Below are positions 27,799-62,936 of a stretch of 64,000 bases of DNA, one piece after another. Below the pieces are notes generated by a model, which saw nothing but the letters and a program-made list of their open reading frames with translations, did not search any database and was not told where the DNA came from. Both the position numbers and the translations under genes were made by a program. The first letter of the stretch is position 1. Every line of letters starts with the position of its first letter. Where the stretch lies: NCBI GenBank assembly GCA_028280285.1, contig JANQMA010000017.1:993-64992 (forward strand), in the 5' to 3' direction. This DNA comes from Candidatus Omnitrophota bacterium (lineage in GTDB: Bacteria > Omnitrophota > Gorgyraeia > Zapsychrales > Zapsychraceae).

Positions 27799-27801
27799 TT
27801 C

Positions 27802-27875
27802 GTACTTGGTACTTAGGACTTCGGACTTGGTGGAAAATATCCTAAGTACTAAGTCCCAAGTCCCAAGTCCTAGGT
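27802..27875. repeat. AAGTCC/GGACTT-family palindromic element, copy 1
   Basis: GTACTTGGTACTTAGGACTTCGGACTTGG ... CCTAAGTACTAAGTCCCAAGTCCCAAGTCCTAGG. Confidence 0.8.
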
Positions 27876-27897
27876 CCAATACAATTAATAATAAGAT

Positions 27898-28272
27898 ATG
27901 ACAAACTCCCCACAAGGTTCAGAAAGAAGAAGAGATCCCCGCCTCGAAAATAGCATTCCGCTTAAGATTGTCCAAAAAGGCATCAATATCTCGACTAATA
28001 CAGTGAATGTCAGCCGTTCCGGCGCCTATTGTACTGTTGATCAATATATCGAACCAATGACCAAGATGAAAATTGATCTTATGGTTCCTGTCCGGCAAAA
28101 CGGCAAATTTGTCAGTAAAAAGATTTCATGTGACGGCGTGGTTGTGCGTGCGGAGGAATGTGAAGATGGCAAAAGTCATAATATTGCGATCTTTTTTAAT
28201 GATATCGCGCAGAAAGATGCCGAACGTATTGCCGAATATGTGAATTCTTATCTAAAGAATGAATCGAATTGA
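27898..28272 (+). CDS. PilZ-domain protein (second paralog)
   Basis: RRRDPRLENSIPLKI ... NVSRSGAYC matches the PilZ pattern. Confidence 0.6.
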   Translation: MTNSPQGSERRRDPRLENSIPLKIVQKGINISTNTVNVSRSGAYCTVDQYIEPMTKMKIDLMVPVRQNGKFVSKKISCDGVVVRAEECEDGKSHNIAIFFNDIAQKDAERIAEYVNSYLKNESN

Positions 28273-28955
28273 GTTTATCCAGATCCACTAAAAAACCGGT
28301 TCCGGTGCTTTTTGAAAATCAGCATTTTATCGTCTTTAATAAACCCGCCAGGCTTCTTGTCATCCCGTCACCGACCGAGAAAAATAATACATTAGTTAAT
28401 ATTGTGAATCGTCAGTATGCACGTAATGATGGATCGGCCAAGCTTCATCCATGCCACCGGTTGGACAAAGACACATCCGGGGCTATTTTGTTTGCCAAGG
28501 GTAAGGCCAACCAAAAGGTGATGATGGAGGAGTTTAAAGACAGGGAAATTAAAAAAGTCTATGAGGCCTTTGTGCATGGACACCCTAAAAGAAAAAAGGC
28601 ATCGATCAGTAAGCCGATCAAGTCACTGGATCAGAAGAAATTTAAGCAAACGCGGGCCAAGCCGGCTTTAACGAATTATCAAGTGAAGAAAACCTGTGAA
28701 CACTTTAGTGTCGTCGAGGCAGAGCCTGTGACCGGACGTGCTAATCAAATACGTATTCATTTCAAAGATATCGGCCATCCGCTTGTGGGGGAGCGCAAAT
28801 ACGCCATTGCGCGGGATTATCCGGTCAAATTTAAACGTGTTGCGCTTCATGCCAGCCGTTTGGAGTTTATTGATCCACATTCGCAACAGCATGTTATTGT
28901 GGATGCTCCTCTGGCGGAAGATATGAGAGAATTTTTGGAAAAAAGTGGTCCGTGA
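28269..28955 (+). CDS. RluA-family pseudouridine synthase
   Basis: HRLDKDTSGAILFAK (catalytic Asp motif), TGRANQIRIHF and HPLVGERKYA. The last three codons and the TGA stop lie inside a GTGGTC-family palindromic element. Confidence 0.8.
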   Translation: MSLSRSTKKPVPVLFENQHFIVFNKPARLLVIPSPTEKNNTLVNIVNRQYARNDGSAKLHPCHRLDKDTSGAILFAKGKANQKVMMEEFKDREIKKVYEAFVHGHPKRKKASISKPIKSLDQKKFKQTRAKPALTNYQVKKTCEHFSVVEAEPVTGRANQIRIHFKDIGHPLVGERKYAIARDYPVKFKRVALHASRLEFIDPHSQQHVIVDAPLAEDMREFLEKSGP

Positions 28956-29012
28956 TCCGTGGTCAGTGGTCGTTTTTATGTTTGATCACAGAACACAGAC
29001 CACAGATCACTA
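28944..29012. repeat. GTGGTCYGTG-family palindromic element, copy 1 (overlaps rluA stop)
   Basis: Left arm GTGGTCCGTGATCCGTGGTCAGTGGTC, right arm GATCACAGAACACAGACCACAGATCAC. Confidence 0.85.
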
Positions 29013-29348: not shown

Positions 29349-29412
29349 TACCGAAAACAAGTGCCGGGTGCGCAGGCACCCGGTGCTTGTGACGGTTATA
29401 AGGAAATAATAG

Positions 29413-29949: not shown

Positions 29950-31974
29950 ATGGATCAATTCAAACTAGTTTCAAAATTCAAACCTGTCACCGAACAGCTG
30001 GATGCGGTCGATAAGCTCGTTCAAAACATTAAGGGCGGCACAAAAGATCAGGTTCTCCTCGGGGTAACCGGGAGCGGTAAAACATTCACCCTCGCCAATG
30101 TGATTGAGAAGATCAACCGTCCGACGCTCGTTATAAGCCACAATAAAACCCTTGCCGCTCAACTCTATAGCGAATTTAAAGAATTCTTTCCCCATAATGC
30201 GGTTGAGTATTTCGTGAGTTATTACGACTATTATCAACCGGAAGCCTATGTTCCCCAAACCGATATTTATATCGAGAAGGATGCTTCGATCAATGACCGG
30301 CTGGACCGTCTGCGTCTTGCGTCAACCACATCGCTTATGACCAGACGTGATGTTATTATTGTGGCGAGCGTTTCTTGTATTTACAATCTTGGTTCGCCTG
30401 AAGATTATGCACAGTTTTTACTTTATTTGAATGTTGGTGATGAAATTGAGCGCGATCAGGTGCTGGAGAAGCTGGTCGACATACAGTATGAACGCAGCGA
30501 TATGGATTTTAGGCGCGGTTCTTTCCGCGTGCGTGGGGATGTGGTCGAGGTTTATCCGGCATACCGGCAGGACGGCCTTAGAATTGAATTTTTCGGGGAT
30601 GAGATTGAAAAGATCAAACAAATTCATCCGCTGACAGGTGATGTGATTGCCGAACTTGATAAAATTGCCGTGTATCCGGCGAAACATTTTATCATCGGTC
30701 ATGAGCGCATTGACGCGGCCATGGTTGAAATCGAAACAGAACTGAAAGAACAACTTAAAGTATTAAATAAAAAAGGCAAGCTCGCCGAGGCGCAAAGACT
30801 TGAGTCGCGCACGAAATACGATATGGAAATGATGAAAGAGATGGGCTATTGCAACGGGATTGAAAACTATTCACGTGTCTTATCCGGCCGCCCACCGGGG
30901 TCCAGGCCGTATTCGCTCATTGATTATTTCCCGGACGATTTTGTAACGCTGATTGATGAGTCGCATGTAACCGTTCCACAGGTTAACGGGATGTATAACG
31001 GCGACCGCGCGCGTAAAACAACGCTTGTTGATTATGGTTTCCGTCTGCCGTCGTGTTTGGATAATCGTCCGCTTAAATTTGCTGAATTTGAAAAATTAAT
31101 CAGTCAGACTATTTATGTCTCCGCTACACCCGGGCCTTATGAGCAGAAAAAAGGCAAAGGAAATCTGGTCGAGCAGATTATCCGTCCGACGGGGATTGTT
31201 GATCCGCCGATTGAAGTGCGCAAGACCGAAGGGCAAATCGATGATTTGATGAATGAAATCAAAAAGCGGGCCAAGGCCAATGAGCGTGTGCTGGTTACAA
31301 CGCTGACCAAACGAATGTCGGAAGATTTAACGGAGTATCTGCAGGATAACAGTATTAAGGTAAAATATTTGCATTCCGACATTGAAACCATTGATCGTAC
31401 GAAAATCCTGCAGGATCTGCGGCTTAAAAAATATGACTGCCTTGTCGGGGTTAACCTTTTGCGTGAAGGTTTGGATTTGCCGGAAGTCTCTCTTGTGGCG
31501 ATACTCGATGCGGATAAGCAAGGCTTTTTACGTTCGCAGACTTCACTCATTCAAACAGCCGGGCGCGCTGCGCGTAATGTCAACGGCATTGTTATTATGT
31601 ATGCCGATACGATAAGCCAAGCGATGAAAGATACGATGGCCGAGTGTGAGCGCCGGCGTAAGATCCAACTCGCGTTTAATAAAAAGCATAATGTCACACC
31701 GCAGACGATTAAGCGGGCTATCCGCCAGGGAATTGAAGTGTTGGCCGACGAGGTCGAAGAAGTGGTGCTTGATGCGGCCGGCCAGGACAAAGAAGAGTTT
31801 GCTTTTGCCAATTCAATTGCCGCACTTGAACGGGAAATGGAAAATGCGGCGCGCAATTTACAATTTGAGAAAGCCGCCAAGTTTCGTGATAGAATAAAAG
31901 CATTACAGGAAAGCCTCGGGGAGCCGTTGGCCGAGCCGAGCGTGCGTAGGCGAAGAAAGAAATCTAAAAAGTGA
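29950..31974 (+). CDS. uvrB: excinuclease ABC subunit B
   Basis: Walker [10 protein letters not shown], helicase motifs, the UvrB beta-hairpin region and a C-terminal UVR domain ([27 protein letters not shown]). The stop codon lies inside a palindromic element. Confidence 0.95.
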
Positions 31975-32030
31975 TCAGTGGTCTGTGATCACAAATATTA
32001 ACTGACCACAGAACACAGACAACAGACCAC
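31969..32030. repeat. GTGGTCYGTG-family palindromic element, copy 2 (contains the uvrB stop codon)
   Basis: GTGATCAGTGGTCTGTGATCAC ... GACCACAGAACACAGACAACAGACCAC. Confidence 0.85.
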
Positions 32031-32037
32031 AAATATT

Positions 32038-32900: not shown

Positions 32901-32907
32901 TTTAACT

Positions 32908-32975
32908 TTGGTACTTAGTACATGGGCCCTGGGACTTGGGTTTACCAAGTCCTAAGTCCCAAGTTCTAAGTCCAG
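32908..32975. repeat. AAGTCC/GGACTT-family palindromic element, copy 2 (in the groESL 5' UTR between CIRCE and the Shine-Dalgarno)
   Basis: GGTACTTAGTACATGGGCCCTGGGACTTGGG ... CCAAGTCCTAAGTCCCAAGTTCTAAGTCC. Confidence 0.8.
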
Positions 32976-35011: not shown

Positions 35012-35083
35012 TGGTGGTCTGTGTTCTGTGGTCTGTGTTCAGTTAAATGAACGACTGATCACAGATCACGGACCACAGATCAC
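35012..35083. repeat. GTGGTCYGTG-family palindromic element, copy 3 (intergenic, after groEL)
   Basis: GGTGGTCTGTGTTCTGTGGTCTGTGTTC ... GATCACAGATCACGGACCACAGATCAC. Confidence 0.85.
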
Positions 35084-35242
35084 ATAATATCACTAAAACC
35101 AGTCATTCTCGTGGCTGGTTTTATTTATATATTGACTTTTCAAAAAAATACGGTATCATATATGCTTATAATTTAGACTTAGGTTTTCTCTATATTAGAG
35201 ACTTAAGTTTATATATATCAATGGTTTAGAAAGGATTCACCC

Positions 35243-38273: not shown

Positions 38274-38519
38274 CTTAGTGAACAGTGAACAGAAGGGGAA
38301 TACTTCTATTCACTAGCTGTTCCCTGTTCCCTAACACATCTCTTTTCCCATCCCATTATTTTTTGCATTAATATTAATATATGTAATACTTGCAATATTA
38401 ATGAGCATTTAATTTACACGACCATAAGGAAGTGTAAATTAGAAATGCGAATTAATCCCGAGTTGCTCTCGCTAAATGTCTGCAACGAGGGATCTTACAA
38501 TCAATAAGGATTAATATTC

Positions 38520-41500
38520 GTGAAACGCACTCACTGGACATATAGATGCATTGCACTTGTCGTAAGCTGTTTATTTACAGTTACTTCGATAAATCCCGTC
38601 TATGCCCAGATGCAACCTACCCAGGCCATTGCTCCTAAACCATTGCCTTTAAATGTGTTAAGTCAACCCTATGAACCGATTTTGATCAAAGGCCTTAAGG
38701 TCAATCAGACCAATCCATTTGAGATGGAGTTTATTGTAAGTGATCCGTGGTCCGTGGTCCGTGGTCAGCGGAATACTGATCACAGACCACAGAGCACAGA
38801 CCACCTAGAGCAGGAGTCTACTCAATTAATTAAATACTTCCTTGCCGCTTTAACCACTCCCGAGCAAGACATGTGGGTCAACCTATCCCCGTATGAGAAG
38901 AATCGGATTATTCCAGAGTCATTTGGTCGGACAGAAATGGGACGGGAGCTGCTTGTACAGGACTATCTTTTAAAACAGGTTACAGCATCATTGCTTCATC
39001 CGGATGGGGAGTATGGACAAGAGTTTTGGAGTAAAATAGCAACCCAAACATCGGAGGACATACCATTAGAATTATTCAATAAGGTCTGGATCATGCCGGA
39101 TAAAGCGGTGGTGTATGAGAATGAAGGGATAGCGTATGTGGTAGAGGCGAGTCTTAAGGTTATGTTGGAGGAAGATTACCTTGCGCAGCAAAAGAGTGGT
39201 CCGTGGTCCGTGGTCAGTGATCTGTCAAAAAATACGACCACAGATCACAGAACACAGACCACACAAATCATTCGTGAAACAATCATTCCCGCTATCGAAA
39301 CCGAGGTCAACAATAGCAAGAATTTCGCCAAGCTCCGCCAGATCTATCACAGCCTCATCCTGGCGACATGGTACAAGAAAAAGATGCAAAACGCGATTTT
39401 AACCCAAGTCTATGCCGATCAAAACAAGACTAATGGTGTAAGCCACAATGATCCTAAAGCAGCTGAAAAAATCTGGCAAGAGTACACCAAGACATTTAAA
39501 GAAGGGGCGTATAACTTTATCAAAGAAGAATACGATCCACAGACTCAGCAAATCGTTCCACGGAAGTATTTCAGCGGGGGGATGGCGATGGAGGTTGTGC
39601 TATCAGAACCGGCAGCGCTTACATCACAACAACAAGAGACTATTCCCGACAACGCCTACCTCGTCCGTGTTGCGTTAAACGAATTGACTCCCGATTCTGA
39701 TAGCGCGGCAATGGTTAAGAAAAAATCAGCGGATGATTTTAAATATAATGTCAATATAAGGACCCCCAAATTACAGGATCAACTCCCAGGGTTAGCAAAA
39801 AAACGGGAACAGACAAAGAAGGCACTTATTGGTTATTTCAATCAAATGATACATCATAATCCATTTGAAATGCCGAAATTTAATGTGAATTATAATCGAA
39901 TCATGCATTTACTACGACATATGATAGGGTTTGATGCTATTGGATTCTCATTTTCTGAACAAGATCCTGATGGCTTTATTACAAAAGCTGCGGTTTCTAA
40001 TGTGCTTATCCCTTTAATTGAACAAACAAAATTTCCTTTGTCTGTTGACCGTATGACACAATTTGTATTAGAGGCAAATTTAGATAATGAACGTCAGTTT
40101 AAATATATCGAAGCGCTTAATGATTTTAAAGTTTTTGCTACTTCTTATTCGGAAGGCGCCGAAAACGCAGCGTTGACAGCGCCCGCTCCCGACCCCGCCG
40201 TGATGACGCAAGAGGAACAACTTTCTATCGATCCGGCATCACTTGCTGAGTTAGCATTGGCTATGACTGAAAAGGATGTTCAAGATATCGCTGAAGTAGC
40301 CCGGTTGATAAAACAGAACTCCGATCATTATGCAAAAATATTGCTCAAAGAATATAACCAAACCAAAGACCAATTCAAAAATCGAGAAGAAATAATAAAG
40401 ATTGACGCTGTTGTAGACGATCCGACAATCCAGAAATTAATAAAAATATTTAAACGGATAAGCCGTAAAACAGGGAAAGAAAACAGCCGTAATGTTTCGC
40501 GTAGTTTAATGGGCTTAATTTATTTCTATAAATATATAACATATTTATATAAGCCCAAATATCAAATGGATGTTATAAGTGACATATCATTAAATATACT
40601 TTTGGGGGATATAATTAGGGAAAGCAATACTAAGAGAGGCCTTAAATCTTCCACCATTCCTATAGAAGATCAAATGCGCAATGTTGTTTTAGATTTTGCC
40701 GATAATTTAGGCAATTTGGTTGGGCGGATCAATGCACTGCCAAAAGCGAACACTACAGAGTTTGCACAAGTGTGGGCCTCTATGATTAATGAGGATAATT
40801 TTACCAGGGCAGATCTTTATCAGAACATAAAATCTTTTGGCAGGGTTTTAGAAGCGCGACGCGGGCGTTTTTTAACATTCTTAAGAGCAGACCGCAGCTT
40901 AACACGTGAAGCAAAAGAAACGTTGATTCTAAAAGCGCTTGCAATGAATCAAGAAGGGAAGGATCCAAAGGCAATTGTGGATGAATTAATGCAAGTGTGG
41001 ATTCCTCAATTTAAACGCAGTGAAGCAATATATGGTGTGCTAAGGATGACCGGCTGGGAATCAGAAATTCATAGATACCAATGGGGTGAATATGCAAAAT
41101 ATGCCCCTTTTCCTGTTCGGGAAATCACCAATGTCTACCGGGATATTGTTGGTATGCATTTAGATCCTCATATTTCCTCACATGATTGGACAGAGTATGT
41201 CGGACGTCCGGCACTCTCCTGGTTTGTTCAGTGGAAAAAAATAGAAGCCATGACTCAATTGAGTTTTATACCACTTGAAGATCCGGATGGTAATTTGATT
41301 TACAATGATTTGCAGGTTAATGGGGTTATCCCCGAGGAAATTTTAAAACTTGTTTATAAGGACGTTCATCCGCTGGCAACTATTTCCGGTACAGAAGATA
41401 AAAAGTGGAGGACGGAACGATGGCAGTTATATAAGGGCCATTACTATCCACCACTCGAAAGTGAATGGATAGAGTTTGTCAAAATGCTGCTCTATTCCTC

Positions 41501-44500
41501 CCAAAATCGCTTGAAGAGTAGACGAGGCAATCATGATGCTGTCATTGTAAAGCACGCTTATAATTTAAAAATAGGCAACCTTCGTTATGATCTGTATCAG
41601 TCAAATAATTTATGGAGGCTGCAGTATCCGTATGGAGATATATCTGATCTTCCATTTTCTGATTATGGGAAGAGCCTGCAGACAGCACAAGTTCTACATG
41701 GCTTGATGATGCATCATCTTGTTGTTAAGTATGGTCTCATTAATAATGCTCCGGCTGAACATCATGATTTTATTATGCGTTTATCTGATATGTGGCAAAG
41801 TTTTGAAAACGATCTTGAGGAAACTCTTCAAAACCGGGGTTATACGCGAGAGAATTTGCGTTTGCATGTTTTGTCGAATGCTCATGGAGTCGATGGTATT
41901 AAATATCTTAGGGAATTGTTTATTAATCGTATATTTCGATTACGTGAAAAGAAAGTTACTGAGGAAATACGTAATCTTGTCGAGTCGACCCTCACTGAAG
42001 TGGATGATGTTTTAACGGAAGAATATGAAAAGAGAAAGGACGTCGAAAACGCGGCATTGATTAAACAGCGTCCAGCGTTGAGCGTAGAGCGTATAGCGGA
42101 TAGTGATATTAATCTAACCGCTAAACGCCATCCGCTAGACACTAAAACCGACCCCGCCGCGATGGTGAAACAAAATTTGGCGAACATTGACCAAAATATT
42201 TATGAGGATATTGTAGACCATCTTCTATGGCATAAGCCAAATGTGATTGTAAAAGATCATTATCGCGATATTTTAGCGCGGTTTATTCACGATAATAGAA
42301 AAAAAGAAAAAAAATTCTGGTCTCGTGAGGGTAAAAAAATATTTTCCAAAGAGCAGGTGCGCACTTTATTGGAATCTTGGCCCGGAAATAATATGCAATA
42401 TAAAGCACATGTTAATTCTTCGGGGAATAGAGAAATATCAATCATATTGCATCAAAAAATTAAACCGACTTTTACTATTGATCTTACATTTAAGAGAGAC
42501 GGACAGGTTAAGCTAGGTAAACAGTTTAAATCGCATCAAAACTATATAGTGGATAGATTAGAAGAGAGTTATGGGATCGACCGTATTGAAGCCCGTGTGA
42601 TTGCACAAATAGCACGTCGTTATTGGTTTAAAAGTGTTTTTATCCCTATGCTGCGCGAGATGGAAATTGACCATCTGCATGGTAAAAAAATAGATGAAAA
42701 ATCAACATTTTTCGCAGAGATGGGTTTTAAAGACGGTGTTTTATCTGTCGACCCCGCCGCGATGGCGGAGCAGGAGCAAGAGTCCAAAAAAGATCAATCC
42801 GCTCCGGTGTCTTTCAATGTTGGCGATGAATTGAGGAGGATTTATCATAATACAACACGTCCTAAAATTTTCAAAGTAGAAAAATGGCCTGGGCAGGCTA
42901 TACAACTACGAATGGAAGAGGATCCTCTTCCACGAGATAAACCGCCTAATTCTATTACTGATGAGGATTTGACATATCGCATATACGCATCGGTCACACA
43001 TGGGAAATCCGCGTTCTACTATCCTGTAGCGATGCGTTCGGGTATTTTTTACAAAAATGATATTGTTGATTTAACAAAAGGCTGGCAAATTACTTATAAT
43101 TACCCGGCCGTCTATAAGCTTATTCAAAACTACCGAGATAAGAATGGATATGCAAGTTATTTGGAGGCGATTGATCATCTATTAGAAAACGATGAAGAAA
43201 CCCGTAAATATGAGAAACATTTAATTAACCAAATCATTTCTTTGTTTCCGATTTTGCAAATTTTTTATGGGTTTTCATCAGATGAGCAAGTGGATGAGTA
43301 TTTTAACCAGGCCCCTCAACAATTAGAAAATAAAGGTATTGCCTCGGCTTTACTTGAATATTTAGGAAGTTATTTACCGGTTGGAACAAAAGTCAAAATT
43401 ATCGGAGCGAATCGGCCGACCGTAGAAGCTCTTAATAAGGGAACGGTATTTGAAGATACATTGCTCGGGAAAATGTATACGCGTATCGGATTTAAAGTTT
43501 TATCTATTGAACAAAAAGACGGACAAAATCCAATTGTTGTTTTCCAGAAGACAAAAAATGTAAAACCACGCGCTAAGTGGAAAGATGTAACGAAGTTAGG
43601 AGGTCACGTTTTATCCGTAGAGAGCGGTGTCGTTTCTGATTCCGAAGGTGTCGAAAACGCTGCATTGAGCAAAGTTGTCCCTGACTCTGCCGTAATGGTC
43701 GGTTTGAAAACGGATCCAATAGAGTTATCCATGGTGGAAGAAAACTATATTAGACTTTTAATAGAAAATAATTACCAGAAACAAACTTTTCAGGTGATGA
43801 TTAACGATATTAAAGATCCTGATCGAATTCACCAGCTTATGACGGAAGTCTTAAAGCGAAAAGGGTATTATCGACCAGAGATCAATAATTTTAATGATAG
43901 AAGTAGGTTTCCTTTGGAGGTTCCAGGTGATAGAGGGCTTATTTTAACGTCTATGGGTGATGGTAATGAAGATATTTTAAGATTTACGGTTGAAAGTAAT
44001 AATGTGATTATGTGGAAGCGTCCTAAAATTGGTGGTTCAAAATTGGGTGTTGCACCGGTTGCCTATGTTTGGTGGGCAACTCATCCAGAAATTAGAAAAG
44101 AGTTGTCCGGGAAGCCAATGAAGGGGTATAAGGCAGATTATAGGCAGGGGAGGGCTCTTGAAAAAGCATGGATTTTTAAAATTGCCTTACCCGATGGAGC
44201 TAAAGATTGGAACAAATATGATTATTCAGGTTCTTTTCCTGTTTGGCAAAAAGATTTAAAACAAAACGTCGAAAACGCGGCGTTGACAGAGCCTGCTCCC
44301 GATCCCGCCGCGATGGCGAAGCAGGAATTTGAACGGACTGATTCAGCGGTAGTTGCAGATCAGGAAGGACAATATATTATCCCTGGTTTTGATATTATAA
44401 AATATTCGGTTGATTCTTATGATCAAGAAAATCGAGAAGCAAGAGAAAGTCGAGAGGCAAGATATGAATTGAATGATTGGCAAGAAGGTGTTGTATTGGC

Positions 44501-46034
44501 TCAAATTGAAAATATCATTATGCAGGCACAAGAAATTGGCGATATAGATATGGAAAATTATTTAATATATGTTTTGGAACAAGGAGTTAAAAAATTTATT
44601 AAATCTGATACGTCAGAATATATTCAGGCAGTAGGTAAAACAAAAATGGACGGTCGTGAAGTTGTTTCAATAGCCGAGGAATTACTTAATCAATCAAGAT
44701 CTGATGATGACGTGAAATTATTGGTTAAATTGGTTTTAATCCATGAATTTAATCATATTCTTGATCACAAATTAAATCGTTTATCATTAAACATTATGAA
44801 ATTAGTTGACATAAATCTTATAGAACGTTCGGCCTTGATTCGTTCAGCTGCATATTTTGATGGATTTATAAAGAAAGAAGGCGATGGATTAAATGATTTT
44901 ATTGTCATGTACCGATTTGATGGCGATAAAATTATGGCTTATACTTCAACAAATTCGGAAATATCTTCTGTGAAATCAGATTATCAAAAGCCACCTGTTA
45001 TCATGCCTGGGGAAAATCGGTATACATATTATGATCAATTAGCTAGAAAAGGAAATATTGTAACGTCTGAAGAAACTGGGTCTATATATTATTATGAGTC
45101 ATATAGAAAAGGGGGTGATGACACTACACTGGAAAAAAATGGTGTCGTTTCTGAAAAAAATGGTGTCGTTTCTGATTCCGAAGGTGTTGAAAACGCTACG
45201 TTGGCAAAGGGCGCTTCCGACAATGCCGCGATGGCGGATAATTCAGATAGTGATGAGGTTTTTATAGAACAAGATAATTATACTTTTAAATATCGACGAC
45301 CAACACAAATAGCAATGGCTTCGGTAACAGTGATGAATCCCAAAGGAGTTCATGGTGGTCCTTCACAATATATAACGGGTTTGGTTAAATCGTATCAAGA
45401 TATTTGGCCACTAACGATTAAAATGAAATTTAAGGGTGAATACATTGATACGAATGATGTGAAAAATATTATGGAATTGAAAATAAAACAAGGTGATGTA
45501 TTGGAAATAGAGATGTTTGGGAGTGAAGAAGGGGCTTTAAAGTTTGTGCAAAGTATGGCCGCAAGGGTAGCTGATTCTGAAACACGTAAAAAGTATGAAG
45601 CGAAAATCACAAGACAGCCATTAAATGAGGATGACGCAGCATTGACTAAAGGTGGTATAGACTTCGACGCCTCCAAAATGGATCTAGAGATTCGGACGGA
45701 ACAAAGCCAGATGCTCGATGCTCGCCCGCCCCGCCGCTTCGCGGCGGAAGCTGCGGGCCGGGGATGCTCGATGCTAGAGGACGAAGAGTTGCGAAAAGAG
45801 TGCCTTACTAACACCTCTAGTGGTATACAGTTTAAGTTTACTCCCCAACAGATTGAGGGGATGCGCCAGAATATTACGGGCTTTAATCCGGTGATTATTA
45901 ATATCCAGCCGATTGTGAACTTGCCGTTGTTTTTGGGGTTGAATGATATTGAGGACGCGCCGGATGAGACAGAAACGGTAGAGGCAGATGGTCAGGATCT
46001 TTTAGCAAGAATGGAGGAGTATTCATATAACTAG
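38520..46034 (+). CDS. giant secreted protein (2504 aa) of unknown function, with repeated ENAAL..PAPDPAAM modules and an HEFNH motif
   Basis: Uninterrupted 7.5-kb ORF in an AT-rich genome. Signal peptide MKRTHWTYRCIALVVSCLFTVTSINPVYA-Q. HExxH at about nt 44745 (LVLIHEFNHILDH). Contains three in-frame palindromic-element insertions and 6-7 GC-rich repeat modules. Confidence 0.8.
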   Translation: MKRTHWTYRCIALVVSCLFTVTSINPVYAQMQPTQAIAPKPLPLNVLSQPYEPILIKGLKVNQTNPFEMEFIVSDPWSVVRGQRNTDHRPQSTDHLEQESTQLIKYFLAALTTPEQDMWVNLSPYEKNRIIPESFGRTEMGRELLVQDYLLKQVTASLLHPDGEYGQEFWSKIATQTSEDIPLELFNKVWIMPDKAVVYENEGIAYVVEASLKVMLEEDYLAQQKSGPWSVVSDLSKNTTTDHRTQTTQIIRETIIPAIETEVNNSKNFAKLRQIYHSLILATWYKKKMQNAILTQVYADQNKTNGVSHNDPKAAEKIWQEYTKTFKEGAYNFIKEEYDPQTQQIVPRKYFSGGMAMEVVLSEPAALTSQQQETIPDNAYLVRVALNELTPDSDSAAMVKKKSADDFKYNVNIRTPKLQDQLPGLAKKREQTKKALIGYFNQMIHHNPFEMPKFNVNYNRIMHLLRHMIGFDAIGFSFSEQDPDGFITKAAVSNVLIPLIEQTKFPLSVDRMTQFVLEANLDNERQFKYIEALNDFKVFATSYSEGAENAALTAPAPDPAVMTQEEQLSIDPASLAELALAMTEKDVQDIAEVARLIKQNSDHYAKILLKEYNQTKDQFKNREEIIKIDAVVDDPTIQKLIKIFKRISRKTGKENSRNVSRSLMGLIYFYKYITYLYKPKYQMDVISDISLNILLGDIIRESNTKRGLKSSTIPIEDQMRNVVLDFADNLGNLVGRINALPKANTTEFAQVWASMINEDNFTRADLYQNIKSFGRVLEARRGRFLTFLRADRSLTREAKETLILKALAMNQEGKDPKAIVDELMQVWIPQFKRSEAIYGVLRMTGWESEIHRYQWGEYAKYAPFPVREITNVYRDIVGMHLDPHISSHDWTEYVGRPALSWFVQWKKIEAMTQLSFIPLEDPDGNLIYNDLQVNGVIPEEILKLVYKDVHPLATISGTEDKKWRTERWQLYKGHYYPPLESEWIEFVKMLLYSSQNRLKSRRGNHDAVIVKHAYNLKIGNLRYDLYQSNNLWRLQYPYGDISDLPFSDYGKSLQTAQVLHGLMMHHLVVKYGLINNAPAEHHDFIMRLSDMWQSFENDLEETLQNRGYTRENLRLHVLSNAHGVDGIKYLRELFINRIFRLREKKVTEEIRNLVESTLTEVDDVLTEEYEKRKDVENAALIKQRPALSVERIADSDINLTAKRHPLDTKTDPAAMVKQNLANIDQNIYEDIVDHLLWHKPNVIVKDHYRDILARFIHDNRKKEKKFWSREGKKIFSKEQVRTLLESWPGNNMQYKAHVNSSGNREISIILHQKIKPTFTIDLTFKRDGQVKLGKQFKSHQNYIVDRLEESYGIDRIEARVIAQIARRYWFKSVFIPMLREMEIDHLHGKKIDEKSTFFAEMGFKDGVLSVDPAAMAEQEQESKKDQSAPVSFNVGDELRRIYHNTTRPKIFKVEKWPGQAIQLRMEEDPLPRDKPPNSITDEDLTYRIYASVTHGKSAFYYPVAMRSGIFYKNDIVDLTKGWQITYNYPAVYKLIQNYRDKNGYASYLEAIDHLLENDEETRKYEKHLINQIISLFPILQIFYGFSSDEQVDEYFNQAPQQLENKGIASALLEYLGSYLPVGTKVKIIGANRPTVEALNKGTVFEDTLLGKMYTRIGFKVLSIEQKDGQNPIVVFQKTKNVKPRAKWKDVTKLGGHVLSVESGVVSDSEGVENAALSKVVPDSAVMVGLKTDPIELSMVEENYIRLLIENNYQKQTFQVMINDIKDPDRIHQLMTEVLKRKGYYRPEINNFNDRSRFPLEVPGDRGLILTSMGDGNEDILRFTVESNNVIMWKRPKIGGSKLGVAPVAYVWWATHPEIRKELSGKPMKGYKADYRQGRALEKAWIFKIALPDGAKDWNKYDYSGSFPVWQKDLKQNVENAALTEPAPDPAAMAKQEFERTDSAVVADQEGQYIIPGFDIIKYSVDSYDQENREARESREARYELNDWQEGVVLAQIENIIMQAQEIGDIDMENYLIYVLEQGVKKFIKSDTSEYIQAVGKTKMDGREVVSIAEELLNQSRSDDDVKLLVKLVLIHEFNHILDHKLNRLSLNIMKLVDINLIERSALIRSAAYFDGFIKKEGDGLNDFIVMYRFDGDKIMAYTSTNSEISSVKSDYQKPPVIMPGENRYTYYDQLARKGNIVTSEETGSIYYYESYRKGGDDTTLEKNGVVSEKNGVVSDSEGVENATLAKGASDNAAMADNSDSDEVFIEQDNYTFKYRRPTQIAMASVTVMNPKGVHGGPSQYITGLVKSYQDIWPLTIKMKFKGEYIDTNDVKNIMELKIKQGDVLEIEMFGSEEGALKFVQSMAARVADSETRKKYEAKITRQPLNEDDAALTKGGIDFDASKMDLEIRTEQSQMLDARPPRRFAAEAAGRGCSMLEDEELRKECLTNTSSGIQFKFTPQQIEGMRQNITGFNPVIINIQPIVNLPLFLGLNDIEDAPDETETVEADGQDLLARMEEYSYN
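38741..38804. repeat. GTGGTCYGTG-family element, copy 4, in frame inside the giant ORF
   Basis: GATCCGTGGTCCGTGGTCCGTGGTCAGCGGAATACTGATCACAGACCACAGAGCACAGACCAC, translated as DPWSVVRGQRNTDHRPQSTDH. Confidence 0.85.
39196..39263. repeat. GTGGTCYGTG-family element, copy 5, in frame inside the giant ORF
   Basis: GTGGTCCGTGGTCCGTGGTCAGTGATCTG...GACCACAGATCACAGAACACAGACCAC, translated as SGPWSVVSDLSKNTTTDHRTQTTQ. Confidence 0.85.
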
Positions 46035-51059: not shown

Positions 51060-51087
51060 GAGAAATAAAAGTGGTTGTAATAAATTA

Positions 51088-51172
51088 GGTTAAAGGTTTT
51101 AGGTATTAGGTTTTAGTAAAACAAATGGCTAACACCCAACGCCTGAAACCTAAAACCTTCTGTCATTTAACC
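51088..51172. repeat. GGTTAAAGGTTTTAGGT-family palindromic element, copy 1 (after dnaE)
   Basis: GGTTAAAGGTTTTAGGTATTAGGTTTTAG ... CTGAAACCTAAAACCTTC ... TTAACC. Confidence 0.75.
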
Positions 51173-52956: not shown

Positions 52957-53228
52957 AAGTAAAAATTAAAAAAGAAAATTTAAAATTTAAAGAAACTGAG
53001 AAATAAAAAATAAATTAAAAATTGTATTTGGTAATTGGTATTTAGTAATTGGAGGTTAATGATTTATAAATTAGTTTCATAACGAAAACATGATTTCGAA
53101 AAATTCTATTTCAATGCTTTTATTAACTAATTACCAATTACTAACGACCAAATACAATTTTAATTTTTAAATTTATTTAACTTTTAAATTTTCTTTTTTA
53201 ATTTTTATTTCTCATTTTTAAATTATTT
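52957..53228. repeat. Long (about 270 bp) AT-rich imperfect palindrome (MITE-like) filling the hisS-aspS intergenic region
   Basis: Outer arms AAAATTAAAAAAGAAAATTTAAAA / TTTTAAATTTTCTTTTTTAATTTT. Inner arms AAAATTGTATTTGGTAATTGGTATTTAGTAATTGG / CCAATTACTAACGACCAAATACAATTTT. Confidence 0.75.
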
Positions 53229-53246
53229 AGAGAGGATTCAAGTAAG

Positions 53247-54635: not shown

Positions 54636-54637
54636 AA

Positions 54638-54843
54638 AGTGATAAAGTGATAAAGTGATAAAGTGGTAGAGTGATAAAAAGGTTAAAGGTTTTAGGTTAG
54701 AGGTGAAAATAAATTTTTATTTTAACCCTTCACCTTCAACCTTTAACCAACAGTATTATTTTGATCTTTATTGTTTTTAAATTTTTTACTAGCACTTTAT
54801 CACCAATTGTTACTTTACTTATGAGTATCACTCTATCACTAAT
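54638..54843. repeat. Composite nested palindrome after aspS: GTGATAAAGTG tandem-repeat arms flanking a GGTTAAAGGTTTTAGGT-family element
   Basis: 54638-54678 (GTGATAAAGTGATAAAGTGATAAAGTGGTAGAGTGATAAAA), then 54680-54748 (GGTTAAAGGTTTTAGGTTAGAGGTG ... CACCTTCAACCTTTAACC), then 54792-54843 (CACTTTATCACC ... ATCACTCTATCACT, inverted). Confidence 0.75.
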
Positions 54844-55455: not shown

Positions 55456-55456
55456 G

Positions 55457-55513
55457 CAGTTGCTCGTTGCTGGTTGCTCGTTGCTAGCAACTAGCATCAA
55501 GCAACTAGCAACT
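55457..55513. repeat. GTTGCTCGTTGCT / AGCAACTAGCAAC palindromic element after the LysM gene
   Basis: GCAGTTGCTCGTTGCTGGTTGCTCGTTGCTAGCAACTAGCATCAAGCAACTAGCAACT. Confidence 0.7.
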
Positions 55514-55523
55514 ATACATAAGC

Positions 55524-56471: not shown

Positions 56472-57900
56472 GACCACCAAATCACATGAGCAAATAACAA
56501 GATACGTGACAGCCACCTTTTTAGGAATTTTGTTTGTTGCTTTTTGTTATTTGATGAACTACTCATTAATACTTCCGTTGTTGGTCATACTGATGGGCGC
56601 TCATTTGCGTCTTTCGCGTAATATCAATTCGCGTATGCTGCTTAATCTTGGCTTATTATTCATGGTCATTGTGGCACTCGCGTATTTCATACAATATAAA
56701 TTTCCCAACACAACATTTGTGATCCCTGTTGCCAGTATTGGTATGTTAACGATGCTTTTATTTAATAGCTATCGATTAACATTGATTATGTCATTTGTGA
56801 CGAGTGTGTTTGTCGGCAATATGCTCGATGGTGGTTTTGGCATGATGATTATGTTTTTTTCTGGCGCTATGGTCGGTGGATATGCCGTTTATGAAGCACG
56901 GACACGAGGGCAGTTATTTACAGCGGGGCTTTTTGCCAGTGCAATACAAACTATTGCTTTAATTTTGATGTACCCTGACTCACAGAAAATTCTAGCCGGG
57001 GAGTTTATGAGTGAATATCTTTATCCGACTGTTGCCAATGGTTTTCTTTCTGCGCTTTTTGTTGTTGCGACACTAAAAATATTTGAGTCAATTTGTGGCG
57101 TTTTGACGAACTTCAGCTTGCTGGAATTATCCGACTTTAATAATCCGCTTCTTAAACGTATGATTATGGAGGCGCCGGGCACCTATCATCACAGTTTGGT
57201 TGTCAGTAACCTAGCCGAGGCTGCGTCGAATGAGATCGGGGCGAATGGACTTTTGACGCGTGTAGGTGCGTACTATCATGATATCGGCAAAATGTCGAAG
57301 CCTGAATACTTCACGGAAAATCAATTGATGGGCGGCAATAAACATGATGCGATTGAACCATCGATGAGCCGATTGGTTATTATTAATCATGTGAAAGAAG
57401 GAATTGAACTTGCTAAGAAGCATAAGTTAAATCAGGCTATCATTGATTTTATTCCGCAGCATCACGGGACATCGCTTATTTTCTATTTTCATCAAAAGGC
57501 GATTGAAGGGGCCGGTGATGTGCGTGAAGTTGATGAGGAAAATTACCGTTATCCCGGACCTAAACCGCAGACACGTGAGACCGCGATCACACTTTTGGCG
57601 GATTCGGTGGAAGGGGCCACGCGCGCGCTTGATGAGCATACACCAAGCAGTATTCAAGAGACAGTGCAGAAGGTTATCAATAATAAATTTATCGACGGGC
57701 AGCTGGATGAATGTCCACTGACACTCAAGGAAATTGACCGGATTGCTAAAACATTTACCCGCATCTTAAGCGCGATGTATCACGGACGCGTTAAATATCC
57801 TGAAAAGAAAAAAGAGAATGGACATTCAAATAGAAAATCTTCAGAAAAAGATAATTCTGAAACCAATTCCGATCAAGAACCTGGTCCAAACGGTTCTTAA
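56443..57900 (+). CDS. 7TM receptor with intracellular HD hydrolase (YqfF/PgpH-like)
   Basis: Multiple TM helices followed by the HD domain (HSLVVSNLAE...YYHDIGK...QHHGT). Confidence 0.85.
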   Translation: MRLMNMTTVETTKSHEQITRYVTATFLGILFVAFCYLMNYSLILPLLVILMGAHLRLSRNINSRMLLNLGLLFMVIVALAYFIQYKFPNTTFVIPVASIGMLTMLLFNSYRLTLIMSFVTSVFVGNMLDGGFGMMIMFFSGAMVGGYAVYEARTRGQLFTAGLFASAIQTIALILMYPDSQKILAGEFMSEYLYPTVANGFLSALFVVATLKIFESICGVLTNFSLLELSDFNNPLLKRMIMEAPGTYHHSLVVSNLAEAASNEIGANGLLTRVGAYYHDIGKMSKPEYFTENQLMGGNKHDAIEPSMSRLVIINHVKEGIELAKKHKLNQAIIDFIPQHHGTSLIFYFHQKAIEGAGDVREVDEENYRYPGPKPQTRETAITLLADSVEGATRALDEHTPSSIQETVQKVINNKFIDGQLDECPLTLKEIDRIAKTFTRILSAMYHGRVKYPEKKKENGHSNRKSSEKDNSETNSDQEPGPNGS

Positions 57901-62841: not shown

Positions 62842-62842
62842 T

Positions 62843-62913
62843 GGTGGTCTGTGTTCCGTGTTCTGTGTTCTGTATCGTTCCAAGATGACCACTGACCACA
62901 GATCACAGACCAC
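62843..62913. repeat. GTGGTCYGTG-family palindromic element, copy 7 (intergenic, after the CMD gene)
   Basis: GGTGGTCTGTGTTCCGTGTTCTGTGTTCTG ... GACCACTGACCACAGATCACAGACCAC. Confidence 0.85.
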
Positions 62914-62936
62914 TATTATCTAGTTCATACAGCGAG

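What the first reader, a model, noticed from the sequence alone, without database searches (positions are those of the whole stretch)
35012..35083. RPE-like palindromic element family (GTGGTCYGTG arms): 7 copies in 64 kb, at intergenic, stop-codon and in-frame coding positions
Seven copies of a 60-75-bp element lie at 28944, 31969, 35012, 38741, 39196, 58023 and 62843. Each has a left arm of 2-4 tandem GTGGTCYGTG units and a right arm of the inverted units (CACAGAMCAC), so each can fold into a long hairpin. The copy density, about one per 9 kb, is high. They do not behave like simple REP elements. Three copies sit inside ORFs in frame, and two more overlap the stop codons of rluA and uvrB; the rluA copy also encodes its last residues. 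This is the behaviour described for Rickettsia palindromic elements, but the sequence family is unrelated. Six further hairpin families with the same architecture (tandem short repeats forming each arm) occupy most other intergenic positions. Together they suggest an active, undescribed system of selfish hairpin elements in this genome.
Basis: partly seen in the sequence, partly recalled or inferred. Interest (0 to 1): 0.85.

Follow-up and report, generated by a model that had tools for sequence, protein, structure and literature searches.

The report
Heptamer-repeat hairpin elements in Omnitrophota
The seven sites are real copies of a small DNA repeat: about four tandem 7-base units, a short unrelated spacer, then the same units inverted. 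It is the kind of heptamer hairpin already noted in cyanobacteria and Geobacter, here found in an uncultured Omnitrophota genome, sometimes read in frame inside genes.

Summary
Seven 60-76-bp imperfect palindromes lie at the stated coordinates. The unit is a heptamer, GTGNTCN, not a 10-mer, with about four units per arm and an unrelated 9-14-nt loop.

- Three copies are read in frame: one in ybeY and two in a 2,504-aa ORF.
- Two copies supply the TGA stop codons of an RluA-family gene and of uvrB.
- At least eight other tandem-repeat hairpin families lie in the same 64 kb.

The host is an Omnitrophota genome with no close relative in the databases. Empty-site and strain polymorphism tests were therefore impossible.

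The architecture is not peculiar to this genome. Inverted pairs of about 4x7-nt arrays, including GTGGTCC ones, occur in contigs from other phyla. Three of those sit in frame inside conserved enzymes.

The literature already describes this kind of repeat: cyanobacterial STRR 7-bp hairpins, and paired tandem-repeat sites between and within genes in Geobacter metallireducens.

What is conserved is the 5-base core, not the pairing at the variable positions. No target-site duplication, conserved interior or transposase was found. "RPE-like behaviour" is supported; RPE membership, "active" and "undescribed" are not.

Verdict: a new member of a known but mechanistically unexplained class. Interest is moderate.

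The parts
28944..29011 (.). Family A copy 1. It overlaps the 3' end of the RluA-family gene: the last residues ...KSGP and the TGA stop lie in units 1-2. It fills most of the 75-nt gap before the next gene.
   Evidence: dG -26.8, z -4.5
31970..32031 (.). Family A copy 2. The first unit, GTGATCA, supplies the TGA stop of uvrB. The element fills the 63-nt uvrB-coaX gap.
   Evidence: dG -15.7, z -2.9
35012..35085 (.). Family A copy 3, the flagged one. It lies in the groEL 3' UTR between the stop codon and a separate canonical terminator. It is the best-paired copy.
   Evidence: (dG -46.4, z -9.1)
35094..35123 (+). Intrinsic-terminator-like hairpin with a T-run downstream of copy 3. This, not the heptamer element, is the likely groESL terminator.
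38740..38805 (.). Family A copy 4, in frame in the 2,504-aa ORF (peptide SDPWSVVRGQRNTDHRPQSTDH), at variable site 1 of the conserved N-terminal domain.
39195..39263 (.). Family A copy 5, in frame in the same ORF (SGPWSVVSDLSKNTTTDHRTQTT), at variable site 2.
58022..58099 (.). Family A copy 6, in frame in ybeY (GGPWSVVRGRSPKINTQKTDHRKQTT), in the hypervariable loop between strands 63-67 and 94-102.
62842..62915 (.). Family A copy 7, intergenic between a CMD-family gene and a 110-aa ORF.
28269..28955 (+). RluA-family pseudouridine synthase gene (PF00849) that ends inside copy 1.
29950..31974 (+). uvrB, whose stop codon lies in copy 2.
38520..46034 (+). 2,504-aa ORF with an Omnitrophota-wide N-terminal domain. 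It carries four in-frame hairpin repeats (A4, A5, D, E).
57818..58318 (+). ybeY (PF02130), intact through copy 6. A public gene call truncates it to 93 aa, starting at a GTG inside the element.
27801..27880 (.). Family B hairpin: units GKACTTN on the left and the inverse AAGTMCN on the right, about 4 per arm.
32905..32975 (.). Family B second copy, in the groES 5' UTR downstream of a CIRCE-like operator.
38275..38334 (.). Family C hairpin, (AGTGAAC)2 ... (CTGTTCC)2, just after guaA.
42073..42137 (.). Family D hairpin (units NAGCGTN), in frame inside the 2,504-aa ORF.
51085..51162 (.). Family F hairpin (units WWAGGTW, 4 per arm).
52957..53246 (.). Nested imperfect palindrome of about 290 nt, built from A/T-rich 6-7-nt arrays outside and AATTGGT arrays inside.
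54680..54750 (.). Family G hairpin (AAAGGTT-type units, 4 per arm), lying inside an outer pair of arms that starts with (AAAGTGAT)5 at 54636-54678.
55458..55514 (.). Family H hairpin, (GTTGCTS)4 and its inverse, with a 3-4-nt loop.

Best explanation
The seven sites are copies of one family of tandem-heptamer hairpin repeats. Each has about four head-to-tail GTGNTCN units, a 9-14-nt A/T-rich spacer unrelated between copies, and about four inverted units.

This is one of at least eight such families in this stretch of an Omnitrophota genome. It belongs to the same kind of repeat as the cyanobacterial STRR 7-bp hairpins and the paired tandem-repeat sites of Geobacter metallireducens.

Shown:
- The copies are real and dispersed.
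- They lie inside operons at cistron boundaries, in a 3' UTR, and in frame inside genes.
- The coding copies sit in hypervariable surface loops.
- The 5-base core of every unit is conserved, whereas the loop and unit positions 4 and 7 are free and do not co-vary.

Inferred working model:
- The element is propagated or maintained at the DNA level by something that reads or re-creates the heptamer core. This could be an unknown protein or a copying process. It does not arise by independent local slippage, and it is not maintained by selection for base pairing alone.
- Because it sits in operons it is transcribed, and it folds into a long imperfect stem-loop. There it most likely acts like other extragenic palindromes, as a barrier to 3' exonucleases or a brake on ribosomes at the stop codon (copies 1-3).
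- Copies that fall in frame in permissive loops persist as passengers, because the units carry no stop codon except the GTGATC variant. They are then shaped by protein-level selection.
For: - Reality and enrichment: (45 hits against 2.6 expected); 19 period-7 arrays against 0.25 in shuffles, and 1 array with period 8.
- Same build in all families: about 4 units per arm.
- Architecture is heptamer-specific and general. In about 2 Mb of fetched loci there are 59 inverted pairs of period-7 arrays, 2 of period 8, 9 of period 9 and none of periods 5, 6 or 10. Mean copies per arm are 3.9 and 4.1, and the median spacer is 13 nt. About 35 of the 59 belong to the family the metagenome scan selected for.
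- Examples in Omnitrophota, Nitrospirota, Verrucomicrobiota and Acidobacteriota.
- GTGGTCC-arm hairpins in at least 120 metagenome stretches. 68 of 124 matches have 2 or more units on both arms. All 6 viral hits are single-unit hairpins.
- Core conservation: GTG.TC. is kept in 270 of 275 core positions, while the loops share nothing. Positions 4 and 7 pair no better than chance: 13 Watson-Crick pairs of 54, against 18.8 in shuffles.
- In-frame copies lie in permissive loops. In YbeY the segment is hypervariable in 30 homologues and has pLDDT below 50 in a model that is otherwise at 87.5.
- The two sites in the giant ORF are variable across the family. In other Omnitrophota they are occupied in frame by other palindromic repeats, which I confirmed as hairpins in the DNA.
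- The same behaviour occurs elsewhere: in-frame heptamer hairpins in a radical-SAM protein, a TP-methylase/MazG protein and acetyl-CoA synthetase.
- Protein-level shaping: left-arm position 7 is C in 10 of 27 units, against 1 of 28 in the right arm. Nine of the 10 are in coding-overlapping copies, where C gives Pro/Arg and T would give Leu/Cys.
- No T-tract follows the elements, and a separate terminator follows copy 3.
- Literature: STRR hairpins of 7-bp repeats between co-transcribed genes, function unknown (PMC2670836). Geobacter paired sites of 3-5 tandem 7-8-nt repeats, and (GGACCGG)4 within and between genes (PMC2700814).
Against: - There is no direct evidence for any function or for how copies arise.
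- Only 64 kb of the genome was available, and no relative closer than 74% GroEL or about 55% YbeY identity exists. Empty sites, unit-number polymorphism and age could not be assessed.
- Many different cores coexist. If each needed its own recognition protein that would be unparsimonious.
- If the RNA hairpin were the selected feature, one would expect compensatory changes, and none are seen.
- Five of seven copies fold more stably as the non-transcribed strand, which argues against a simple mRNA-structure role for those copies.
- At site 2 of the giant ORF the element-coded stretch is no longer than the linker in homologues. 'Insertion' may really be replacement.
Confidence: 0.55

Rival explanations
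1. An active, non-autonomous mobile element (MITE- or RPE-like). The two arrays are terminal inverted repeats bound by a transposase encoded elsewhere in the genome, and copies insert at new sites, including into ORFs.
For: - It is multicopy, at 7 in 64 kb, with several coexisting families and nested arrangements.
- The same protein loops are occupied by different palindromic repeats in different Omnitrophota.
- The family is shared across phyla, which could reflect horizontal transfer.
- Geobacter paired sites have IS elements at a fixed distance (PMC2700814).
- A 39-nt GC-rich hairpin sits exactly in the middle of a (GATGCTC)4 array and looks like an insertion event.
Against: - No target-site duplication or shared flank is seen.
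- The interior sequences of the seven copies are unrelated, although the cores are near-invariant. This is hard to reconcile with copy-and-paste of a master element followed by neutral decay.
- No transposase was recognised in the window, but only 7 of about 60 ORFs were scanned against Pfam.
- No presence/absence evidence is available.
Confidence: 0.2
2. Host cis-regulatory DNA sites. Each arm is an array of four binding units for a nucleoid-associated or global regulatory protein, as proposed for the Geobacter paired sites. Hairpin potential is incidental.
For: - Sequence is conserved, not pairing.
- The number of units per arm is fixed at about 4.
- The symmetric inverted layout suits a dimeric duplex-binding protein.
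- This is the interpretation given in PMC2700814.
- Heptamer repeats affect LexA- and NtcA-dependent promoter activity in Nostoc (bioRxiv 10.1101/2022.06.06.494920).
Against: - At least eight different cores in 64 kb would need many regulators.
- Copies sit inside ORFs and at 3' ends rather than at promoters.
- Intragenic copies in ybeY and in enzymes of other phyla are hard to explain as regulatory sites.
Confidence: 0.13
3. Independent local products of replication slippage (7-nt steps) and palindrome formation by intrastrand template switching at each locus, with no dispersal at all.
For: - Heptamer arrays are over-represented generally: 68 period-7 arrays against 10 of period 8 in 1.31 Mb of unrelated loci. 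The literature cited in PMC4692102 says the same.
- Arm lengths correlate weakly (r 0.26).
- Long pure direct arrays exist, for example in L004.
Against: - The same 5-base core at seven loci within 64 kb, and in other phyla, cannot arise independently by chance.
- Unit number is nearly fixed at four rather than broadly distributed.
- Arms are not exact complements at the variable positions, as fresh template-switch products would be.
Confidence: 0.07
4. An ancient, functional peptide module of the host proteins, or an assembly or sequencing artefact.
For: The ORFs are uninterrupted through the elements.
Against: - Homologues of YbeY (30 sequences) and of the giant-ORF domain (11 sequences) lack the peptide.
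- The same DNA occurs in non-coding positions (copies 3 and 7).
- An independent assembly is identical over 6.6 kb.
- The peptide search found only short spurious ORFs over heptamer arrays.
Confidence: 0.03

Closest known systems
Cyanobacterial STRR (short tandemly repeated repetitive) heptamer sequences and their hairpins (Calothrix/Nostoc/Anabaena)
   Same: 7-bp units repeated in tandem, with several families per genome and many dispersed copies. They can be arranged so that they fold as a hairpin between co-transcribed genes (hupS-hupL). Function is unknown, and transcript stability or translational coupling has been proposed (PMC2670836; PMC4692102). Arrays of GTGGTC(A/C) units occur in Dolichospermum MAG ORFs.
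   Different: The host phylum is Omnitrophota. The unit sequences differ. STRR1-3 as I recall them are CCCCAGT, TTGGTCA and CAACAGT; that is from memory and was not checked. Here several copies are read in frame inside conserved genes or supply stop codons.
Geobacter metallireducens paired tandem-repeat sites (classes 1-3) and the (GGACCGG)4 element family
   Same: Sites of 3-5 tandem 7-8-nt repeats occur in pairs on opposite strands with a variable spacer. They are multicopy and lie between genes of an operon (proB-proA). [quoted passage not shown] Window family H, (GTTGCTS)4, has nearly the class-1 consensus GTTGCTYN.
   Different: The host is in a different phylum, and class 1 has period 8. 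Those authors interpreted the sites as IHF/HU-type regulator sites and saw IS elements at a fixed distance. No IS is seen next to the copies here.
Rickettsia palindromic elements (RPE)
   Same: Palindromic repeats found in frame inside unrelated housekeeping genes. They add a peptide in a place compatible with the fold (PMC10969869; here).
   Different: RPEs are about 100-150 bp with a conserved full-length consensus and a conserved peptide per family. Here the elements are 60-76 bp and only a 5-base core per heptamer is shared. The spacers are unrelated, and there is no sequence similarity to RPEs.
REP/BIME/REPIN extragenic palindromes mobilised by RAYT transposases
   Same: Short imperfect palindromes at operon junctions and in 3' UTRs that are transcribed as part of mRNAs. 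GC-rich, GTAG-tagged REP-like doublets also occur in this window (59060-59139 and 59608-59673).
   Different: Family A has no GTAG or CGTC tag and its arms are internally periodic. Three of seven copies are intragenic. A RAYT could not be looked for in only 64 kb.
TAACTGA heptamer direct repeats of Beggiatoaceae, cyanobacteria and Bacteroidetes
   Same: One heptamer is repeated 2-6 times at many intergenic sites. The same unit is shared by unrelated phyla with no known transfer mechanism. A few sets overlap or lie within ORFs (PMC4679880).
   Different: Those are direct arrays, with one inverted case out of 170, placed just upstream of start codons. The elements here are inverted pairs.

Membership tests
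STRR-type tandem heptamer repeats | The unit is a heptanucleotide repeated head to tail. | tested here: met
   TRF period 7 for both arms of all seven copies. Unit table. Period-7 arrays: 19 observed against 0.25 in shuffles.
STRR-type tandem heptamer repeats | Dispersed multicopy families, mainly intergenic. | tested here: met
   7 copies of family A and at least 8 other families in 64 kb. 11 of 27 intergenic regions are occupied. A whole-genome count is not possible.
STRR-type tandem heptamer repeats | Able to form a hairpin between co-transcribed genes. | tested here: met
   Copies 1 and 2 fill the rluA-like/mazG-like and uvrB/coaX gaps.
STRR-type tandem heptamer repeats | Host is a filamentous cyanobacterium, with the STRR1-3 unit sequences. 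| tested here: not met
   GroEL is closest to Omnitrophota MAGs, at most 74% identity. The unit GTGNTCN is not one of the three classical units, whose sequences I recall from memory.
Geobacter paired tandem-repeat sites | 3-5 tandem 7-8-nt repeats per site, with sites paired on opposite strands and a variable spacer. | tested here: met
   against the description in PMC2700814.
Geobacter paired tandem-repeat sites | Bound by a global regulator (IHF/HU), as proposed by the authors. | not testable with these tools
   Requires binding assays.
Rickettsia palindromic elements | Conserved full-length consensus (about 100-150 bp) and a conserved encoded peptide per family. | tested here: not met
   Copies are 60-76 bp, their spacers are unrelated, and only GTG.TC. 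is shared.
Rickettsia palindromic elements | In-frame presence in unrelated protein-coding genes at structurally tolerated sites. | tested here: met
   ybeY and the 2,504-aa ORF. AlphaFold loop with pLDDT below 50.
REP/REPIN | 20-40-nt palindrome with a conserved GTAG or CGTC tag at one end. | tested here: not met
   Family A ends are GTGRTC / GAYCAC. The tag definition is taken from the abstract of PMC3733652.
REP/REPIN | A cognate RAYT (IS200/IS605-like) transposase gene in the genome. | not testable with these tools
   Only 64 kb of the genome is available, and its other contigs could not be fetched.
MITE | Target-site duplications flanking the terminal inverted repeats. | tested here: not met
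   The flanks of the seven copies show no consistent direct repeat, only A/T-rich context.
MITE | Internal sequence related between copies and to a parent IS. | tested here: not met
   Loops are unrelated. No parent IS was found, though only part of the window's ORFs was scanned.
Intrinsic (Rho-independent) terminator | GC-rich stem followed by a U-tract. | tested here: not met
   No T-run follows any family A copy on the + strand. A separate terminator-like site lies at 35094-35123.
Any Rfam RNA family | Match at the gathering score. | tested here: not met
   Only three tRNAs matched in the window.

The most novel reading that the evidence does not exclude
Inverted pairs of about four heptamers would be the footprint of one still-unknown, phylum-spanning molecular machine, such as a heptamer-reiterating copier, recombinase or transposase. 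This machine would write or maintain these elements. It would explain four things: the fixed 4x7 geometry; the invariant cores with free positions and unrelated loops; the recurrence of the same cores (GTGGTCC, GTTGCTY, CAGCTRT) in Omnitrophota, Acidobacteriota, cyanobacteria and Geobacter; and the in-frame copies in conserved enzymes.
Probability: 0.15. Interest if true: 0.85.

Novelty: new member of a known kind. Interest (0 to 1): 0.5.

Why it matters
Tandem-heptamer repeats have been known since 1990, but neither their origin nor their function has been explained. This window gives a compact, well-defined example outside cyanobacteria.

Together with the fetched loci it adds several hard constraints that any mechanism must meet:
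- The architecture is specific to period 7.
- There are about four units per arm.
- The spacer is about 13 nt and is unrelated between copies.
- The core is conserved without covariation.
- The same cores recur across phyla.
- In-frame copies occur in essential genes such as ybeY.

There is also a practical consequence. The elements mislead gene callers: ybeY was called as a 93-aa fragment starting inside the element, and heptamer arrays are called as short spurious 'proteins'.

Tried and rejected
- **Exact-protein look-ups.** Look-ups of the window's GroEL and YbeY found nothing. The only same-genome contig recovered (L081) is identical to the window, so it adds no polymorphism.
- **Close relatives.** None exist. 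The best GroEL identity is 74% and the best YbeY identity about 50-55%.
- **Idealised element peptide.** Searching 5.8 billion proteins returned only short spurious ORFs over heptamer arrays, and no census of in-frame copies.
- **Viral contigs.** There were 6 hits, all ordinary single-unit hairpins, so there is no phage link.
- **Rfam.** No family matched.
- **Terminator scan.** The elements are not terminators.
- **Target-site duplications.** None were found.
- **Strand asymmetry of folding.** The result is mixed. Copy 3 is far more stable on the transcribed strand. Five others are more stable on the opposite strand, which the Pro/Arg codon explanation accounts for. There is no clean RNA-versus-DNA verdict.
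- **Stop-free-frame test.** Applied to hairpins in high-GC contigs, it is confounded by long chance frames. Only 3 of 16 were checked by Pfam, and all 3 were confirmed.
- **'Stop-free in all frames explains coding tolerance'.** This is only partly right. The GTGATC variant gives TGA, and family D has TAG out of frame.
- **Literature.** Elhai et al. 2008, on small dispersed repeats in heptamer arrays, is not held. What I say about it is from memory and is not used as evidence.
- **16S rRNA complementarity.** GTGATCC is complementary to the 16S 3' tail GGAUCAC, but by a rough count this is not significant (p about 0.1). I kept it as a lead only.
- **Integron attC sites.** I considered these because they are imperfect palindromes with 7-nt core sites. 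I rejected the idea on sequence (no RYYYAAC/GTTRRRY) and on context (housekeeping operons, no cassettes).
Full report
**Observation.** The flagged element at 35012-35083 reads GTGGTCT GTGTTCT GTGGTCT GTGTTCA, then a 14-nt spacer, then TGATCAC AGATCAC GGACCAC AGATCAC. The pattern GTGGTCYGTG with up to 1 mismatch occurs 45 times in the window, against 2.6 expected (largest shuffle 7).

Tandem Repeats Finder reports period 7, not 10, for both arms of every copy. Written out unit by unit, each copy has 3-5 units per arm, usually 4. The units are GTGNTCN on the left and the reverse complement on the right.

All seven copies fold as long imperfect hairpins. RNA dG runs from -15.7 to -46.4 kcal/mol and z from -2.9 to -9.1 against dinucleotide shuffles. 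A Logan assembly of run SRR20820735 is 100% identical to window 53031-59637, which includes copy 6 and families G and H. The repeats are therefore not an artefact of one assembler.

**Where the copies sit.**
- Copy 1 overlaps the end of an RluA-family pseudouridine synthase gene (PF00849). Its last residues KSGP and its TGA stop are element sequence.
- Copy 2 supplies the TGA stop of uvrB in its first unit, GTGATCA, and fills the 63-nt gap before coaX.
- Copy 3 lies between the groEL stop and a separate terminator-like hairpin with a T-run at 35094-35123.
- Copy 7 is intergenic.
- Copies 4 and 5 are read in frame in a 2,504-aa ORF, and copy 6 is read in frame in ybeY.

The four copies that overlap coding sequence upstream of a stop (1, 4, 5, 6) are all read in the same codon phase, xGT GRT CCG TGG. 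This can be read directly from the sequence. The chance probability is about 0.04, so it is only suggestive.

**Are the coding copies additions to real proteins?** Yes. Pfam aligns YbeY residues 19-154 to 116 profile positions. In a 30-sequence alignment the element peptide GGPWSVVRGRSPKINTQKTDHRKQTT occupies the one hypervariable segment, between TDV(I/L)xFD and G(D/E)IIIS. None of the homologues carries the peptide.

An AlphaFold2 model has mean pLDDT 87.5. Residues 71-85 fall below 50, in a loop between strands 63-67 and 94-102.

The N-terminal domain of the giant ORF has more than 1,200 homologues, which carry Omnitrophota names wherever a source names them, at 41-56% identity. In the alignment both element peptides fall at two variable sites. 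At those same sites other Omnitrophota homologues carry other repeats in frame. P0123 has IPAKAGIH at both sites, and P0124 has VIARSQATKQS. I fetched their DNA and confirmed that these are small hairpin repeats, GTCATTCCCGCGAAAGCGGGAATCC and GTCATTGCGAGGAGCCAAGCGACGAAGCAATC.

In-frame palindromic repeats look like a lineage-wide habit.

One caveat applies. At site 2 the element-coded stretch is no longer than the linker of homologues. The event may have been a replacement rather than a simple insertion.

**Organism.** GroEL is at most 74% identical to anything among 185,579 species representatives, and the best hits are Omnitrophota MAGs. Apart from a truncated call from the same genome, no YbeY homologue exceeds about 50-55% identity among 5.8 billion proteins. 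No close relative exists, so empty sites and strain polymorphism could not be tested.

**Other families in the window.** The same build recurs with other units, each with about four units per arm and a short loop:
- GKACTTN and its inverse AAGTMCN (27801-27880, and about 32905-32975 in the groES 5' UTR)
- AGTGAAC (38275-38334)
- NAGCGTN (42073-42137, also in frame in the giant ORF)
- WWAGGTW (51085-51162 and 54680-54750)
- GTTGCTS (55458-55514)

There is also a roughly 290-nt nested palindrome made of A/T-rich and AATTGGT arrays at 52957-53246.

Arrays of at least 3 units are strongly period-specific: 19 with period 7 against 0.25 in shuffles, 1 with period 8 and none with periods 9-12. Tandem-repeat hairpins occupy 11 of 27 intergenic regions of at least 35 nt, and all 11 lie downstream of position 27,000.

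**Elsewhere.** In the 80 GroEL loci (1.31 Mb, many phyla) period-7 arrays outnumber period-8 arrays 68 to 10. Hairpins with tandem-heptamer arms, each with its own unit, occur in other Omnitrophota, Nitrospirota, Akkermansiaceae, Vicinamibacterales, Bryobacteraceae and Pyrinomonadaceae. None of these loci has the GTGGTCY family.

Of 124 matches, 68 have 2 or more in-phase units on both arms. Many have 4-6 units per arm, mostly in contigs of GC 0.55-0.72, and those contigs also carry other heptamer-hairpin families. The same scan of viral contigs gave 6 hits, all single-unit hairpins. That serves as a chance baseline and argues against a phage vehicle.

Over all fetched DNA (about 2 Mb) there are 59 inverted pairs of period-7 tandem arrays. 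There are 2 pairs of period 8, 9 of period 9, and none of periods 5, 6 or 10. Copies per arm average 3.9 and 4.1 (sd about 1), and the median spacer is 13 nt. About 35 of the 59 belong to the family I selected for.

Three of these hairpins lie in frame inside Pfam-confirmed enzymes:
- a radical-SAM protein, inside PF08497
- a TP-methylase/MazG protein
- acetyl-CoA synthetase

A search with an idealised element peptide found only short spurious ORFs over (GTGGTCC)n-type arrays. Three of these come from MAGs labelled Acidobacteria, Dolichospermum and Planctomyces.

**What is conserved.**
- In the 55 units of family A, the five positions GTG.TC. are kept in 270 of 275 cells.
- Position 4 is G/A/T and position 7 is C/T/A/G.
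- The seven spacers share nothing.
- Across the two arms, positions 4 and 7 form Watson-Crick pairs in 13 of 54 cases, against 18.8 expected from shuffling. Adding G-U pairs on either strand does not rescue this.

The conserved feature is therefore the core sequence, not complementarity.

Left-arm position 7 is C in 10 of 27 units, but in only 1 of 28 right-arm units. Nine of the 10 Cs are in the coding-overlapping copies, where C gives Pro/Arg and T would give Leu/Cys. This explains why five copies fold better as the opposite strand, while the 3'-UTR copy 3 folds far better as mRNA, -46.4 against -30.8 kcal/mol. I read this as protein-level selection acting on coding copies after they arose. 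That is an inference.

**How it most likely works.** Four points are shown:
- The family is a real, dispersed repeat.
- It lies inside operons and is therefore transcribed.
- It is not a terminator.
- It is tolerated in frame in disordered loops.

The rest is inferred. The combination of near-invariant cores with unrelated spacers and non-complementary variable positions fits poorly with neutral decay of a copy-and-paste element. It also fits poorly with selection for a hairpin alone. The same core at seven loci, and in other phyla, excludes independent slippage.

I therefore favour a DNA-level process or factor that recognises or regenerates the heptamer core. This would apply to a defined element of about 4+4 units. 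Transcript-level consequences would be typical of extragenic palindromes: 3'-end protection, or ribosome braking when the hairpin abuts the stop codon, as for copies 1-3. Those effects are known for E. coli REP sequences, which I cite from memory.

The rivals are a classical MITE- or RPE-like transposon, regulator-binding sites as proposed for Geobacter, local slippage, and an artefact or ancient peptide. The rival sections weigh each of them. None of the first three can be excluded without a complete genome, population reads or experiments.

**Comparison with what is known.**
- The closest kinds are the cyanobacterial STRR sequences. These are 7-bp repeats able to form hairpins, for example between hupS and hupL, and their function is unknown (PMC2670836; PMC4692102).
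- Equally close are the multicopy elements of Geobacter metallireducens. These are pairs of sites on opposite strands, each of 3-5 tandem 7-8-nt repeats (GTTGCTYN, TCTCCGTS[Y], MTYCTGA), for example between proB and proA. [quoted passage not shown]
- Window family H, (GTTGCTS)4, nearly matches the Geobacter class-1 consensus.
- TAACTGA direct repeats show the same puzzling cross-phylum sharing of one heptamer (PMC4679880).
- RPEs share the in-frame behaviour (PMC10969869) but fail the membership test on length and on conserved consensus.
- REP/REPIN membership fails on the GTAG/CGTC tag and on extragenic location.
- MITE membership fails on target-site duplication and on a conserved interior.
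- I found no paper on such repeats in Omnitrophota.

It is a new member, in a new phylum and with a new core, of a known but unexplained class. Interest is moderate (0.5). The specific finding is not new in kind. However, the regularities seen here across phyla sharpen an old open question. Those regularities are period 7 only, about four units per arm, conserved cores without covariation, shared cores across phyla, and in-frame copies in essential enzymes.

Noticed in passing
window 45709-45777: A 39-nt GC-rich hairpin (CCCGCCCCGCCGCTTCGCGGCGGAAGCTGCGGGCCGGGG) sits exactly in the middle of a (GATGCTC)4 direct array, in frame in the 2,504-aa ORF (peptide ...MLDARPPRRFAAEAAGRGCSMLE...). It looks like an insertion into a heptamer array.
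   Followed up: partly
window 59060-59139 and 59608-59673 (also 29349-29412, 27014-27062, 51630-51671): GC-rich hairpins of a different kind. Two are inverted doublets whose halves begin GTAGGGGCGG or GTACGGGCCG. They look like GTAG-tagged REP/REPIN elements, lying between recO and dtd and after dtd.
   Followed up: no
window 52957-53246: A nested imperfect palindrome of about 290 nt fills the whole intergenic region. Its outer arms are A/T-rich 6-7-nt arrays and its inner arms are AATTGGT-type heptamers (RNA dG about -64 kcal/mol).
   Followed up: partly
window 46032-46065 and 54636-54678: Arrays with period 8 of a related unit, (NAGTGATA)4 and (AAAGTGAT)5. The first unit of the former supplies the TAG stop of the 2,504-aa ORF. 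The latter forms the outer arm around heptamer hairpin G.
   Followed up: partly
window 36423-36744: guaA carries an in-frame N-terminal extension of about 107 residues that is Lys/Ala-rich and histone-H1-like ([17 protein letters not shown]...). It is encoded partly by 18- and 27-nt tandem repeats.
   Followed up: no
window 32874-32900: A CIRCE-like inverted repeat (TTAGCACTT-N9-GAGTGCCAG) lies just after a promoter-like site upstream of groES. Heptamer hairpin family B sits between it and the groES ribosome-binding site.
   Followed up: no
window 57818-58318 (L081 5007-5288): A public gene call truncates ybeY to 93 aa, starting at a GTG inside the element. The full 166-aa ORF overlaps the upstream 7TM-HD gene by 83 nt. 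Heptamer arrays elsewhere are called as short 'hypothetical proteins' (P0241-P0313).
   Followed up: yes
L082 1-6662 (metagenome contig Ga0163179_10008697): A 6.6-kb contig (GC 0.61) consists almost entirely of successive, changing heptamer arrays: 87 period-7 arrays by TRF. Its origin is unknown.
   Followed up: no
L004 17142-17520 (Omnitrophica WOR_2 GWF2_43_52): A pure direct array of more than 50 (GRCGATR) heptamers, interrupted by an assembly gap. This shows that long non-inverted heptamer arrays also occur in this phylum.
   Followed up: no
L208 3230-3260 and 3700-3735; L209 3670-3705 and 3915-3945: Other Omnitrophota homologues of the giant-ORF N-terminal domain carry small GTCATT...AATC hairpin repeats in frame. 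These encode IPAKAGIH, VIARSQATKQS and VIASGAKQS, and two of them lie at the same variable sites as window copies 4 and 5.
   Followed up: yes
L003 9526-9586 and 9911-9979; L067 12381-12454: An Omnitrophota MAG has two CAGCTRT-unit heptamer hairpins flanking groES. A Pyrinomonadaceae MAG has a hairpin with nearly the same unit. This is another core shared across phyla.
   Followed up: partly
window family A units; conserved 16S rRNA 3' tail: GTGATCC and GTGGTCC are complementary (with one G-U pair) to the conserved 16S 3' sequence GGAUCAC next to the anti-Shine-Dalgarno. Families G and the 8-mers resemble other pieces of the extended SD. By a rough count this is not significant (p about 0.1).
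   Followed up: no
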